Assembly: GCA_900553945.1 (NCBI GenBank)
Contig: USFR01000009.1
Span: 3,070 to 67,069 of the forward strand
Direction of reading: 5' to 3'
DNA: 64,000 nucleotides
Source: an uncultured Clostridium sp.
GTDB taxonomy: Bacteria > Bacillota > Clostridia > TANB77 > CAG-508
The notes below the pieces were generated by a model. That model was not told where the DNA came from, ran no database searches, and saw nothing but the letters and a program-made list of their open reading frames with translations. Position 1 is the first letter of the stretch. Each line of letters begins with the position of its first letter. Position numbers and translations under genes: made by a program. This document shows, one piece after another, positions 44,894 to 45,695 of the stretch.

Positions 44894-44999
44894 AAAATCA
44901 GAAAACAGACAATTAAATTTGACGTGAGCCAAAATTATTAAACCTAAATTTACTAATGATAGTTCTCTACAAATTTAAAATTGTCTGTTTTTTGATTTT
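44894..44999 (+). terminator. Long-arm hairpin after the SASP gene
   Basis: aaaatcagaaaacagacaattaaatttg pairs with caaatttaaaattgtctgttttttgatttt around a 48-nt loop. A T-run follows. Confidence 0.5.
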
Positions 45000-45020
45000 T
45001 TATTTATTTTATGATATAAT
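44992..45020 (+). promoter_or_regulatory. Near-consensus sigma-A promoter in front of the compositionally foreign ORF
   Basis: TTGATT (44992-44997), a 17-nt spacer, TATAAT (45015-45020), then the RBS aaaggaga 7 nt before the ATG at 45057. Confidence 0.6.
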
Positions 45021-45056
45021 TTTTATGTACACCAAATTTAGAAAGGAGACTACATT

Positions 45057-45650
45057 ATGATGACATTAGAATCAATGGTAAAGGACATTATGGAAAACTT
45101 GGAGCGGGAGGTTTTAAATTCTGGTGATGTGAATTTCCAATTTGCAGTGAGATATTATCTCATCGGTCACTCCAAGCACGAGTTCGAAAATTCAACTTTT
45201 TTCGATGAATTCGTTTATGAGTCAAACATCCAGCAGCCTTTAACTCGGTTATATAATCTGATTGGTTACTGTGAATTCAAGAAGAAAATCGTTGAACTCA
45301 GCAAATCAGTAACAATCAAGTTGCTGAACGACAAGGATACACCGTACCATCTGCTGGCACAGTTAACAGAGTTTGTTTCCAGAGACTACTGTGAAGCGCT
45401 CGCTCGGAAAAACAAATTCTCACACCACTATCTTTTTATTACTACATTTAAATCTCTTGATTCGTGTTTCATGGTACCACGAGATTCCAGAAATGTATCT
45501 GGATGGAATATGAAACGTTGTCGGCAGTGGATGCACAAGTTTTCAAATCCATCTGAAGAAATTCTGAACATCTTAAGTGATCCCGAAGAAGCTATGAAAG
45601 TTAATGTCGATGACAACTGGTTAATCGGCAAATTGGTTTCAAGTCTCTAA
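45057..45650 (+). CDS. Hypothetical 197-aa protein with foreign composition (no family recognised)
   Basis: Hand counts over six 60-nt lines give about 39% GC, against about 23-28% in neighbouring genes. It uses CTG, CGG, GAG, AAG, CAC and TCC codons that are rare elsewhere in the window. It has a strong RBS and its own terminator. Confidence 0.7.
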   Translation: MMTLESMVKDIMENLEREVLNSGDVNFQFAVRYYLIGHSKHEFENSTFFDEFVYESNIQQPLTRLYNLIGYCEFKKKIVELSKSVTIKLLNDKDTPYHLLAQLTEFVSRDYCEALARKNKFSHHYLFITTFKSLDSCFMVPRDSRNVSGWNMKRCRQWMHKFSNPSEEILNILSDPEEAMKVNVDDNWLIGKLVSSL

Positions 45651-45660
45651 AAGTTAAAAT

Positions 45661-45695
45661 CCCCGGCCGTGAGTTTTCACGGCTGGGGTATTTTT
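45661..45695. terminator. GC-rich hairpin terminator between the foreign ORF and hydA
   Basis: The 12-bp stem ccccggccgtga-gttt-tcacggctgggg is followed by tattttt. It is the only GC-rich terminator in the window. Confidence 0.75.

What the first reader, a model, noticed from the sequence alone, without database searches (positions are those of the whole stretch)
44992..45695. Single-gene cassette with foreign base composition between the SASP gene and hydA
Seen in sequence:
- My hand counts over 45061-45420 give about 39% GC (individual 60-nt lines range 32-47%). A neighbouring 60-nt line in the SASP gene gives 23%, and the window is generally under 30%.
- The ORF uses CTG, CGG, GAG, AAG, GAC, CAC and TCC freely. 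Host genes use TTA, AGA, GAA, AAA, GAT, CAT and TCT almost exclusively.
- It is followed by the only GC-rich terminator in the window (ccccggccgtga/tcacggctgggg).
- It is preceded by an AT-rich near-consensus promoter (TTGATT, 17 nt, TATAAT) and a strong RBS.
I recognise no motif in the 197-aa product (MMTLESMVKDIMENLEREVLNSGDVNFQFAVRYYLIGHSKHEF...). It has no TM segment or signal peptide. No integrase, transposase or flanking direct repeat is visible.
Inference: this is a recently acquired, independently transcribed orphan gene, in the style of a moron or a single-gene defence or accessory module. The sharp composition boundary at the start codon is unusually clean.
Basis: partly seen in the sequence, partly recalled or inferred. 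Interest (0 to 1): 0.75.

Follow-up and report, generated by a model that had tools for sequence, protein, structure and literature searches.

The report
Hypervariable resident gene with rare codons
The odd-looking gene is not a recent import: it is a long-resident, strain-variable gene of a gut Clostridium that encodes a protein of unknown fold, keeps unusual GC-ending codons only at silent sites, and always carries the host's rarest arginine codon near its start.

Summary
ORF 45057-45650 (197 aa) has GC3 0.434 against 0.150±0.031 for 61 host ORFs (z +9.1). It has a strong sigma-A promoter and the most GC-rich terminator in the window.

The interpretation of recent acquisition is not supported.
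- The anomaly is purely synonymous. GC1, GC2 and amino-acid composition match the host.
- The gene occupies the same SASP|hydA slot in every sampled strain and in a sister species.
- Flanking proteins are 98-100% identical between strains, yet this protein is 56-91% identical.
- Synonymous sites are saturated between allele classes and dN/dS is about 0.1.
- Within an allele class, divergence tracks the flanks.

So these are old, discrete alleles swapped by homologous recombination.

The protein is confidently all-helical and matches no solved or viral structure. Only 11 clusters exist among 1.84 billion representatives. None is in phages, plasmids or IMG/VR.

One Arg near the N-terminus is encoded by CGG in 8 of 8 divergent lineages that have Arg there. 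The host uses CGG once in 18,259 codons.

Best reading: a polymorphic recognition-type gene with codon-throttled translation. Its function is inferred, not shown.

The parts
44636..44839 (+). alpha/beta-type SASP gene. This is the conserved left flank of the variable slot.
   Evidence: Pfam SASP E 2e-29. The protein is 98.5-100% identical in all relatives, including a congener with hydA at 76%. The exact protein occurs in 769 index blocks.
44893..45000 (+). Long hairpin between the SASP gene and the gene (the SASP terminator region). Its 3' arm overlaps the -35 box of the gene's promoter.
   Evidence: Inverted repeat with 21-nt arms, 95% complementary. Folded dG is -35 kcal/mol, z -7.7. It is replaced by a different terminator plus about 130 nt in L001 and L022.
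44992..45020 (+). sigma-A-type promoter TTGATT-17-TATAAT with an extended -10 TG.
   Evidence: Consensus scan gives 10 of 12 matches with TG present. It is nearly invariant between strains whose coding sequences differ by 17-40%.
45041..45049 (+). Ribosome-binding site GAAAGGAGA, with the GGAG core 8 nt before the ATG.
   Evidence: Read in the sequence. Invariant in the four-allele alignment. Also present in sister species L027.
45057..45650 (+). Coding sequence of the 197-aa all-helical protein. It is hypervariable between strains and GC3-rich.
   Evidence: ORF. GC3 is z +9.1 with GC1 and GC2 normal. There are 25 close clusters at 56-91% identity. pS is 0.76-0.83 and dN/dS is 0.08-0.13. The AF2 model has pLDDT 87 and pTM 0.82 and is all alpha. 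No fold match was found.
45099..45110 (+). Nucleotide-invariant island TTG GAG CGG GAG (L15-E18) inside the otherwise saturated coding sequence.
   Evidence: All four codons are identical in six divergent alleles.
45105..45107 (+). Family-wide conserved rare CGG codon (Arg17).
   Evidence: CGG in 8 of 8 sequences that have Arg at this column, across lineages with 21-69% aa identity. It is the only one of 27 conserved degenerate columns with a single codon. The conservative probability is about 1e-4 after correction. Hosts use CGG 0-0.8 times per 1000 codons.
45603..45650 (+). Conserved 3' end of the coding sequence (VDDNWLI...SL). This is the right-hand edge of the divergent segment.
   Evidence: Nucleotide identity returns to 91-99% from about 45600. 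Codons N183-D186 and V194-L197 are identical in six alleles. The DDxWLI..SL motif is kept in distant members.
45661..45688 (.). GC-rich hairpin, probably a bidirectional terminator for the gene and for the convergent hydA (stop codon 11 nt away).
   Evidence: 12-bp stem with 9 G-C pairs followed by a T-run. dG is -26.5 kcal/mol on the + strand and -23 on the - strand, z about -6 to -7. Invariant in four alleles. It is the most GC-rich terminator-like hairpin in the window.
45699..47468 (-). hydA ([FeFe]-hydrogenase large subunit). This is the conserved right flank. Part of it co-transfers with allele swaps.
   Evidence: Pfam Fe_hyd_lg_C and related domains in orthologs. The protein is 98-99% identical between strains. 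Positions 46000-47600 are 3-6% diverged between the window and L001, while the outer flanks are 99-100% identical.

Best explanation
The gene is an ancestral, single-copy resident of a core-flanked variable slot (SASP | hydA) in an abundant, uncultured gut Clostridium lineage.

Shown:
- It exists as deeply diverged, discrete allele classes.
- Each class is under purifying selection.
- Classes are exchanged between strains by homologous recombination. The crossovers use the conserved promoter/SASP side on the left and the conserved 3' end of the CDS, the terminator and hydA on the right.
- Its unusual composition is a gene-specific property of silent sites. It has been maintained at equilibrium through complete synonymous turnover.
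- It includes one site-specifically conserved, ultra-rare CGG codon within the first 17 codons in every family member.

Inferred:
- The gene is transcribed constitutively from a strong extended -10 sigma-A promoter.
- Its translation is throttled or gated by rare GC-ending codons, above all the early CGG.
- The product is a non-enzymatic all-helical binding protein, kept polymorphic by balancing (negative frequency-dependent) selection. That pattern is typical of self/non-self recognition, such as anti-phage or anti-mobile-element defence or an immunity-type function.
For: Synteny and residence:
- Same slot in every strain and in both GTDB representatives.
- 10 of 10 SASP-anchored places carry it.
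- A sister species at 84.5% nucleotide identity has it there at 29% aa identity.
- One copy per locus and none elsewhere in the window.

Old discrete alleles:
- Flanks are 98-100% aa identical while the gene is 56-88% identical.
- Window versus L001: flank dS is 0-0.04, while the gene has pS 0.76 and dN 0.22. dN/dS is 0.08-0.13 in unsaturated pairs.
- Within an allele class the gene is 98.2-100% identical, tracking the flanks. This excludes hypermutation.
- The identity trough is sharp at about 44900-45600. L013 is mosaic.
- The hydA tract linked to the swap is only 3-6% diverged, so donors were close relatives.
- Several allele classes occur in one cohort.

Synonymous-only anomaly at equilibrium:
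- z(GC1, GC2, GC3) = +0.4, -0.2, +9.1, with native amino-acid composition.
- GC3 exceeds the neighbours in 13 of 13 loci.
- The GC state of silent sites is independent between saturated alleles (OR 1.3-1.9, not significant), yet GC3 stays at 0.35-0.45.
- GC3 is high even in the invariant 3' end, while variable non-coding DNA upstream is 22% GC.

Conserved CGG. The HD-like cargo is a negative control.

Protein:
- All alpha, pLDDT 87.
- No PDB or BFVD match.
- Family-wide invariant positions are mostly aromatic or hydrophobic.
- pI ranges from 5.0 to 9.5.

Hotspot: the slot holds the gene alone, an HD-like gene plus the gene, the HD-like gene alone, or two other genes plus the gene.
Against: - No functional evidence of any kind exists. 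There is no match to PADLOC, PHROGs or NCBIfam, and no partner gene in the window.
- An overall dN/dS of about 0.1 is low for an arms-race gene.
- Sharing of one allele class between species was not shown, so 'trans-species polymorphism' is not demonstrated.
- Import of alleles from unsampled relatives cannot be excluded.
- The most distant members sit in ordinary chromosomal neighbourhoods.
- Whether CGG is actually decoded slowly here is unknown. In B. subtilis tRNA-Arg(CCG) is dispensable and tRNA-Arg(ICG/ACG) can read CGG (PMC10454642).
- The organism's tRNA set could not be examined.
- Only 24 of 769 index blocks were read, so rare empty sites may exist.
Confidence: 0.55

Rival explanations
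1. One reading: a recently acquired foreign orphan gene (a moron or single-gene cassette) from a GC-richer donor that has not yet ameliorated.
For: - GC3 and codon usage are extreme outliers.
- It has its own promoter and a GC-rich terminator.
- The slot is an accessory-gene hotspot. A second GC3-rich cargo gene (HD-like) has raised GC1 as well, so that cargo may be foreign.
Against: - The gene is fixed and syntenic in all sampled strains and in a sister species.
- GC1, GC2 and amino-acid composition are native.
- Silent sites have fully turned over between alleles, yet GC3 persists.
- No homolog exists outside AT-rich Clostridia among 1.84 billion representatives, and none in phages, plasmids or IMG/VR.
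- There are no repeats or mobility genes.
Confidence: 0.08
2. The gene is an ordinary accessory gene. Its GC3 enrichment is a by-product of GC-biased gene conversion at a recombination hotspot, not of selection on codons.
For: - Recombination is evident at the locus (mosaic L013, allele swaps, linked hydA tract).
- In bacteria, recombining genes have higher GC3, mainly through non-optimal GC-ending codons and most strongly at synonymous sites (PMC4450053).
- AGCGG, the B. subtilis Chi sequence, is over-represented in the window and present in the gene.
Against: - The shift of +0.28 in GC3 (9 SD) affects a single gene.
- Nearby strain-variable genes at 40919-43457 have normal GC3 of 0.12-0.14.
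- GC3 is equally high in the nucleotide-invariant 3' end, where no heteroduplex mismatches arise. The variable non-coding DNA upstream is only 22% GC.
- Biased conversion does not explain a single CGG conserved at one codon across the family.
Confidence: 0.15
3. The protein is the immunity or antitoxin partner of the HD-domain phosphohydrolase that shares the slot in some relatives. In the window it survives as an orphan immunity gene.
For: - A 261-265-aa HD-like gene lies divergently upstream of the gene in two lineages, and the two copies are 58% identical to each other.
- It has invariant H..HD..H..H..D residues and weak Cas3-HD and HD-GYP similarity.
- Both genes are GC3-rich.
Against: - The HD-like gene occurs alone in the same slot (L040-42) and elsewhere in chromosomes (L043-45), with no family member nearby. 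So it does not need this protein.
- The gene occurs alone in most genomes.
- A divergent orientation is atypical of toxin-antitoxin operons.
- The HD family has at least 111 clusters against 11 representative clusters for this family.
Confidence: 0.06
4. The protein is a solitary HaeII-like PD-(D/E)xK restriction endonuclease, for example a type IV enzyme. Its specificity would vary between strains.
For: - A weak Pfam RE_HaeII hit (E 3.5e-4, residues 34-105), repeated in three alleles.
- 'FDEF...CEFKK' resembles D...ExK.
Against: - The score of 20.4 is below the gathering cut-off of 25.
- The confident AF2 model is entirely helical and has no beta-sheet core.
- There is no nuclease match in the PDB by sequence or by fold.
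- E73 is K in P0023, and the motif is not conserved in distant members.
Confidence: 0.03

Closest known systems
Core-gene-flanked variable slots exchanged by homologous recombination ('minimal mobile elements' of Neisseria, and defence or accessory hotspots)
   Same: - Conserved core genes on both sides.
- Alternative whole-gene cargo in different strains and species.
- No integrase, transposase or repeats.
- Exchange through flanking homology. The concept is as discussed in PMC3787668.
   Different: - One cargo gene is essentially fixed in the species and varies as homologous but very divergent alleles. It does not vary as presence or absence of unrelated cassettes.
- The organism is an uncultured spore-forming Clostridium whose competence is unknown.
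Multi-allelic specificity loci under balancing selection in bacteria (for example pherotype loci such as comQXP or agr, and immunity genes of polymorphic toxin systems); recalled from my own knowledge, not tested here
   Same: - Discrete, deeply diverged alleles at one chromosomal position with near-identical flanks.
- Intragenic mosaicism.
- Purifying selection within alleles.
- Several alleles in one host population.
   Different: - No partner (peptide, kinase or toxin) gene is present.
- The protein is cytoplasmic and of unknown fold.
- No family match to any Imm or pherotype protein in Pfam.
- Selection was inferred, not measured.
Rare-codon-dependent translational control (bldA tRNA and the UUA codon in Streptomyces, PMC2000904; rare AGA in Pseudomonas protegens pltR, PMC4836200)
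   Same: A codon that the genome almost never uses is kept at a fixed position near the start of a non-housekeeping gene across orthologs, against mutational pressure.
   Different: - The direction is opposite: a GC-rich codon in a 28% GC Firmicute.
- No dedicated or regulated tRNA has been identified.
- No expression data exist.
- The whole gene, not just one codon, is shifted to GC-ending codons.
Pfam RE_HaeII (PF09554)
   Same: A weak local sequence similarity over about 70 residues in several alleles.
   Different: - The score is below threshold.
- The predicted fold is all-helical.
- The putative catalytic residues are not conserved.
GC-biased gene conversion in bacteria (Lassalle et al. 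2015, PMC4450053)
   Same: Enrichment of non-optimal GC-ending codons at silent sites of a recombining gene.
   Different: - The magnitude and single-gene restriction differ.
- Neighbouring recombining genes are unaffected.
- Enrichment extends to invariant segments.
- A position-specific conserved codon is present.

Membership tests
Pfam RE_HaeII / PD-(D/E)xK restriction endonuclease | Whole-protein score at or above the curated gathering threshold | tested here: not met
   20.4 bits against a cut-off of 25, E 3.5e-4.
Pfam RE_HaeII / PD-(D/E)xK restriction endonuclease | alpha/beta core with a central beta-sheet carrying the catalytic residues | tested here: not met
   The AF2 model (pLDDT 87, pTM 0.82) has 11 helices and no strands. 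There is no nuclease among the Foldseek hits.
Pfam RE_HaeII / PD-(D/E)xK restriction endonuclease | Invariant D...(D/E)xK catalytic motif | tested here: not met
   E73 is K in P0023 and K75 is R in P0024. The motif is absent from the list of family-wide conserved columns.
Recently acquired genomic islet or moron | Presence/absence polymorphism among close relatives | tested here: not met
   Present in all strains sampled, in both GTDB representatives and in a sister species. Only 24 of 769 index blocks were read.
Recently acquired genomic islet or moron | Donor-like composition at all codon positions and in amino-acid usage | tested here: not met
   GC1 z +0.36, GC2 z -0.21, and FYMINK/GARP fractions like the host. 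Only GC3 deviates.
Recently acquired genomic islet or moron | Association with phage, plasmid or mobility genes, or flanking repeats | tested here: not met
   No hits in phages, plasmids or IMG/VR. No flanking repeats. No integrase or transposase in the gene tables.
Core-flanked variable hotspot (minimal-mobile-element-like) | Conserved core genes on both sides, with different gene content between them in different genomes | tested here: met
   SASP is 98.5-100% identical and hydA is 76-99% identical. The slot holds the gene alone, HD plus the gene, HD alone, or a 66-aa and a 183-aa gene plus the gene.
Core-flanked variable hotspot (minimal-mobile-element-like) | Exchange by homologous recombination through the flanks | tested here: met
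   - Allele swap between strains with 99% identical flanks.
- A linked 1.6-kb hydA tract with 3-6% divergence.
- A mosaic allele in L013.
The uptake mechanism (transformation or transduction) was not tested.
Balanced (long-term) polymorphism | Allelic synonymous divergence far above that of linked flanks, without a raised local mutation rate | tested here: met
   pS is 0.76-0.83 against flank dS of 0.02-0.27. Within-class identity tracks the flanks.
Balanced (long-term) polymorphism | Intermediate-frequency alleles, an excess of old polymorphism by a formal test (HKA, Tajima's D), and trans-species allele sharing | not tested
   Only cluster sizes (93, 53, 17, 10 ... members) and co-occurrence in one cohort are available. 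No formal test is possible with the few DNA sequences held.
Known anti-phage defence systems (PADLOC-DB v2) | Match to a model of a known or candidate defence protein | tested here: not met
   No hit at E <= 1 for the window protein. None for four distant members except a chance-level Cas3 hit.
bldA-like rare-codon translational control | The codon is nearly absent from the rest of the genome | tested here: met
   CGG occurs once in 18,259 host codons in the window, and 0-0.8 times per 1000 in five of the six other host loci sampled; the sixth, L033, has 1 CGG in only 218 host codons. Whole genomes were not available.
bldA-like rare-codon translational control | The codon is positionally conserved in orthologs despite synonymous saturation | tested here: met
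   CGG in 8 of 8 sequences at the Arg17 column. It is the only single-codon column of 27. P is about 1e-4 after correction.
bldA-like rare-codon translational control | A dedicated, limiting or regulated tRNA, with translation dependent on it | not testable with these tools
No tRNA-Arg(CCG) is present on the fragments held. No expression data exist.
Diversity-generating retroelement target | Adenine-specific variation in a C-terminal variable repeat, with a template repeat and a reverse transcriptase nearby | tested here: not met
   Variation is spread over the whole coding sequence at all bases and is mostly synonymous. There is no repeat copy and no RT in the neighbourhood.

The most novel reading that the evidence does not exclude
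The family is translationally gated by codons the host barely decodes. A universally conserved early CGG, together with pervasive GC-ending codons, would keep a constitutively transcribed mRNA almost silent. It would become translated only when decoding capacity changes. That could happen through a regulated rare tRNA-Arg(CCG), a mirror image of bldA/UUA in a low-GC Firmicute. It could also happen through tRNAs brought in by an infecting phage with GC-richer codon usage. The polymorphic all-helical protein would then act as a strain-specific recognition or abortive-infection effector.
Probability: 0.12. Interest if true: 0.85.

Novelty: new variant of a known kind. Interest (0 to 1): 0.6.

Why it matters
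- It shows that a textbook signature of horizontal transfer (aberrant GC3 and codon usage with sharp boundaries) can belong to an old, vertically resident gene. Checking GC1, GC2 and amino-acid composition, and synteny in relatives, separates the two cases.
- It defines a very rare protein family with no recognisable fold relative, in an abundant human-gut Clostridium. The family has allelic divergence of the kind seen at self/non-self loci.
- It provides a concrete, testable case of site-specific selection for an almost unused codon in a low-GC bacterium. Codon-level translational control there is essentially unexplored.

Tried and rejected
- **HaeII / PD-(D/E)xK nuclease.** Rejected by the sub-threshold score, the all-helical model and the non-conserved motif.
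- **Local hypermutation.** Rejected because divergence within an allele class equals flank divergence.
- **DGR, shufflon or mobile cassette.** No repeats, no RT, and variation is not A-specific.
- **Structured RNA or riboswitch in or around the gene.** No Rfam hit at E <= 1 in 43000-48000 and only tmRNA and tRNA in the window. The 5' mRNA fold is not significant, z -0.68.
- **Phage, plasmid or viral origin.** No hits.
- **Hidden paralogs or tandem duplication** (for example the 183-aa gene of L008). A family HMM finds exactly one member per locus.
- **Iron-sulfur or zinc site from the four invariant Cys.** The cysteines are not conserved in distant members.
- **CGG reassigned to another amino acid.** Rejected because the other CGG positions align with AGA, CGA, CGT, AGG or Lys.
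- **Chi site as the conserved feature.** AGCGG is present only in some lineages. The conserved element is the CGG codon itself.
- **Translational optimisation** (C-ending two-fold codons). It does not explain CGG, CTG, CTC, CAG or GAG.
- **Fold search of the HD-like cargo.** It gave only weak HD-superfamily similarity, so the substrate is undetermined.
- **A broad family alignment (A3) could not seed collection scans**.
- **My guess that the upstream operon is Tad-pilus-like** was not supported by Pfam.
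Full report
**1. Observation**

The ORF 45057-45650 (+) encodes the quoted 197-aa protein. 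The window is 28.2% GC and the ORF is 38.0%. Against 61 long ORFs of the window, its GC3 is 0.434 versus 0.150 ± 0.031 (maximum 0.254), z +9.1. A CAI-like index is 0.316 versus 0.704 ± 0.050, z -7.8.

The codon claims are correct:
- CGG is 4 of 9 Arg codons, against 1 CGG in 18,259 host codons.
- CTG+CTC are 9 of 21 Leu codons, against 1% in the host.
- ATC is 6 of 10 Ile codons, and ATA is 0 of 10 (host 5% and 54%).

The transcription and translation signals are as described.
- The promoter TTGATT-17-TATAAT, with a TG extended -10, is at 44992-45020.
- The RBS is at 45041-45049.
- The hairpin at 45661-45688 has 9 G-C pairs in 12. The next best terminator-like hairpin in the window has 6.
- The hairpin folds stably on both strands and lies 11 nt from the hydA stop codon, so it probably terminates both convergent genes.
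- No flanking repeats were found.

**2. The anomaly is synonymous only**

GC1 (0.419, z +0.36), GC2 (0.288, z -0.21) and amino-acid composition are host-like. The FYMINK fraction is 0.345 against 0.378, and the GARP fraction is 0.122 against 0.168. A gene from a donor whose GC3 is about 0.43 would also be shifted at first and second positions. This one is not.

**3. The gene is resident, not recent**

- Only 25 close clusters exist in 5.8 billion proteins.
- Every context retrieved is HAD hydrolase - SASP(+) - gene(+) - hydA/B/C(-) - HPF.
- Both GTDB species representatives that carry it are uncultured gut Clostridia MAGs with the same arrangement.
- An unbiased look-up anchored on the exact SASP protein (769 index blocks, an abundant organism) found a 191-197-aa family member after the SASP in 10 of 10 places.
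- One of these, L027, is a sister species. It has 84.5% nucleotide identity over 5.3 kb, HAD and HPF are 89% identical in protein, and hydABC is absent at this place. Its copy is 29% identical to the window protein.
- A family HMM finds exactly one member per locus and none elsewhere in the window.
- All orthologs keep raised GC3. It is 0.36-0.47 in the main group, and it exceeds the neighbours in 13 of 13 loci across the family.

**4. The gene is hypervariable, as discrete old alleles**

- Between strains whose flanking proteins are 98-100% identical, this protein is 56%, 69% or 88% identical.
- For the window versus L001, flank dS is 0-0.04. The gene has pS 0.76 (saturated) and dN 0.22.
- In unsaturated pairs dN/dS is 0.08-0.13, so the protein is under purifying selection.
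- Within one allele class, the gene's nucleotide identity (98.2-100%) tracks the flanks (97-100%). This excludes local hypermutation.
- L001 and L022 have flanks 98-99% identical to the window but carry a 71.6%-identical allele.
- The identity trough is confined to about 44900-45600.
- L013 is mosaic. Its 3' third is 99% identical to the window allele and the rest is 75-85%.
- Between the window and L001, a 1.6-kb tract of hydA is 3-6% diverged while the outer flanks are 99-100% identical. The swap therefore came from a close relative and not from a distant donor.
- The promoter, the RBS, the last ~50 nt of the coding sequence and the terminator are nearly invariant. They can serve as recombination arms.
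- Several allele classes were recovered from the same cohort.

This is the pattern of a balanced, multi-allelic locus. No formal test of selection was possible.

**5. The GC3 level is an equilibrium, not a relic**

- In saturated allele pairs, the GC or AT state of third positions at amino-acid-identical codons is statistically independent (odds ratios 1.3-1.9, not significant). Each allele nevertheless holds GC3 at 0.35-0.45 at those sites.
- GC3 is uniformly high along the coding sequence, including the nucleotide-invariant 3' end. The variable non-coding DNA upstream is only 22% GC.
- Nearby strain-variable genes (40919-43457, 82-93% aa identity between strains) have normal GC3 of 0.12-0.14.
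- GC-biased gene conversion has been proposed for bacteria and acts mainly on non-optimal GC-ending codons (PMC4450053). It is qualitatively compatible but explains these details poorly.

**6. A conserved rare codon**

In a codon alignment of nine divergent family members (21-69% aa identity), 27 columns keep the same degenerate amino acid in at least 7 sequences. Of these, 26 show mixed synonymous codons. The Arg17 column is CGG in 8 of 8.

- Every one of the 13 genes examined has a CGG within its first 17 codons. In five genes it is the only CGG.
- Using the family's own Arg codon usage with that column excluded (9/73), the probability is 5e-8. It is 3.5e-6 for six independent lineages, and about 1e-4 after correction for 27 columns.
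- CGG is almost unused by all hosts, at 0-0.8 per 1000 codons.
- The other invariant Arg is AGA in all six aligned main-group alleles.
- The window allele's other CGG codons align with AGA, CGA, CGT, AGG or Lys, so CGG means Arg here.
- The GC3-rich HD-like cargo shows no such conservation.
- A CGG-to-CGA change is a single transition favoured by AT-biased mutation. Retention therefore implies selection on the codon itself.
- Literature: tRNA-Arg(CCG) is the cognate decoder, and some AT-rich lineages lack it. In B. subtilis it is dispensable because tRNA-Arg(ICG/ACG) can read CGG (PMC10454642). CGG disappeared from Mycoplasma capricolum at 25% GC (PMC4695839).
- Whether this organism has the tRNA could not be checked.

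**7. The protein**

- Pfam gives only a sub-threshold RE_HaeII hit (20.4 bits against a cut-off of 25). NCBIfam, PHROGs and PADLOC give nothing meaningful.
- AlphaFold2 on the 23-sequence alignment gives a confident model (pLDDT 87.1, pTM 0.82) of 11 helices and no strands.
- Foldseek finds nothing in the PDB (best E 0.68, TM <= 0.28) or in BFVD. A sequence search of the PDB is also empty.
- An exhaustive profile search of 1.84 billion representatives finds 11 clusters.
- Across the broad family, the conserved positions are mostly aromatic or hydrophobic, plus T95, K132, S196 and a C-terminal DDxWLI..SL motif.
- Four cysteines invariant in the main group are not conserved in distant members.
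- pI ranges from 5.0 to 9.5.

This points to a non-enzymatic helical scaffold or binding protein. The nuclease idea is rejected.

**8. The slot is a hotspot**

- L008 has two extra genes between the SASP and the gene.
- L015 and L033 have a divergently oriented 261-265-aa HD-domain gene upstream. The two copies are 58% identical to each other. They have invariant H..HD..H..H..D residues and weak Cas3-HD and HD-GYP similarity.
- In a more distant congener (hydA 76%, SASP 98.5% aa identity), the slot holds the HD-like gene alone. That gene has GC3 0.49 and its own GC-rich hairpin.
- The HD-like gene also occurs elsewhere without a family member nearby. The two genes are therefore independent cargo.
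- The most distant family members lie in ordinary chromosomal neighbourhoods (Cupin_2 upstream, tadA-dnaX-recR downstream).
- There are no hits in phages, plasmids or IMG/VR.

**9. Interpretation**

Shown:
- Resident, single-copy, independently transcribed gene.
- Discrete old alleles under purifying selection, exchanged by homologous recombination.
- Synonymous-only composition anomaly held at equilibrium.
- Position-specific conservation of an ultra-rare codon.
- A protein family with no known fold relative.

Inferred:
- Balancing selection on a recognition-type function, most plausibly defence or immunity.
- Translational throttling by rare codons of an mRNA made from a strong constitutive promoter.

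Function is not established. The low dN/dS, the lack of a partner gene and the absence from defence catalogues are reasons for caution.

**10. Verdict**

The case is a new variant of known kinds (a core-flanked polymorphic locus, and rare-codon control), carried by an uncharacterised protein family. Interest is moderate to high, mainly for the conserved CGG and the equilibrium synonymous bias. Both are directly testable.

Noticed in passing
window 1-64000 (for example 45103-45107 on +, 46024-46028 on -): AGCGG, the Chi sequence of B. subtilis, occurs 28 times against 14 ± 3.8 expected (0 of 100 shuffles reach 28). It is strand-skewed, 22 on the - strand and 6 on the + strand, matching the dominant gene orientation. 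It may be this organism's Chi-like motif.
   Followed up: partly
window 36797-43457 (- strand): Six consecutive genes (695, 271, 402, 282, 238 and 320 aa) have no Pfam match at E <= 1e-3. Three of them (40919-43457) are strain-variable at 82-93% aa identity, while their neighbours are about 99% identical, and their GC3 is normal.
   Followed up: partly
L040 5001-5801; L015 474-1262 (-); L033 1022-1804 (-): A 261-266-aa HD-domain protein family (at least 111 clusters) occupies the same SASP|hydA slot in relatives, alone or together with the gene.
- It is GC3-rich (0.38-0.50) in AT-rich hosts.
- GC1 is also raised.
- In L040 it has its own GC-rich terminator.
- Its substrate is unknown.
   Followed up: partly
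L008 6570-7579: One strain has two extra genes between the SASP and the gene. One is 66 aa on the - strand. The other is 183 aa on the + strand and has a chance-level 'homing endonuclease' hit in PADLOC, E 0.005.
   Followed up: partly
window 44893-45000: A 108-nt hairpin (dG -35 kcal/mol, z -7.7) lies between the SASP gene and the gene. Its 3' arm overlaps the -35 box. In L001 and L022 it is replaced by a different terminator plus about 130 nt.
   Followed up: partly
window 46000-47600 (hydA): Between the window and L001, hydA is 3-6% diverged over about 1.6 kb, while the left flank and hydB beyond 47600 are 99-100% identical. This is a recombination tract linked to the allele swap. hydA is also more diverged than hydB in several other strain pairs.
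   Followed up: yes
L011 about 5470-5590: About 100 nt are inserted between the conserved terminator hairpin and hydA in the strain carrying the 56% allele.
   Followed up: no
L027 5943-6069: The sister species lacks hydABC at this position. The gene is followed directly by HPF and has an AT-rich terminator instead of the GC-rich one.
   Followed up: partly
L034 6597-6673 and 11224-11703; L030 2858-3340: In two distant taxa the family member lies a few genes upstream of tadA, the deaminase of tRNA-Arg(ACG). In L034 a rare tRNA-Arg(CCU) gene lies 1.3 kb upstream. This is possibly coincidental, given the conserved tadA-dnaX-recR neighbourhood.
   Followed up: no
window 1393-1737 (+): This is the only other ORF with high GC3 (0.39). 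It has no Pfam hit and lies between rpsJ (1076-1405, -) and a RelA_SpoT small alarmone synthetase gene (1747-2409, -). It is probably the rpsJ leader region and not a gene. Rfam finds nothing there.
   Followed up: partly
window 45057-45650 (C72, C112, C137, C155): Four cysteines are invariant in all 23 main-group alleles but are not conserved in distant family members. This may be a lineage-specific metal or disulfide site.
   Followed up: partly
window 25776-26124 and 26894-26982: A tmRNA gene (tag ADNNELAFAA) and a tRNA-Leu(UAA) gene are the only RNA genes found in the window.
   Followed up: yes
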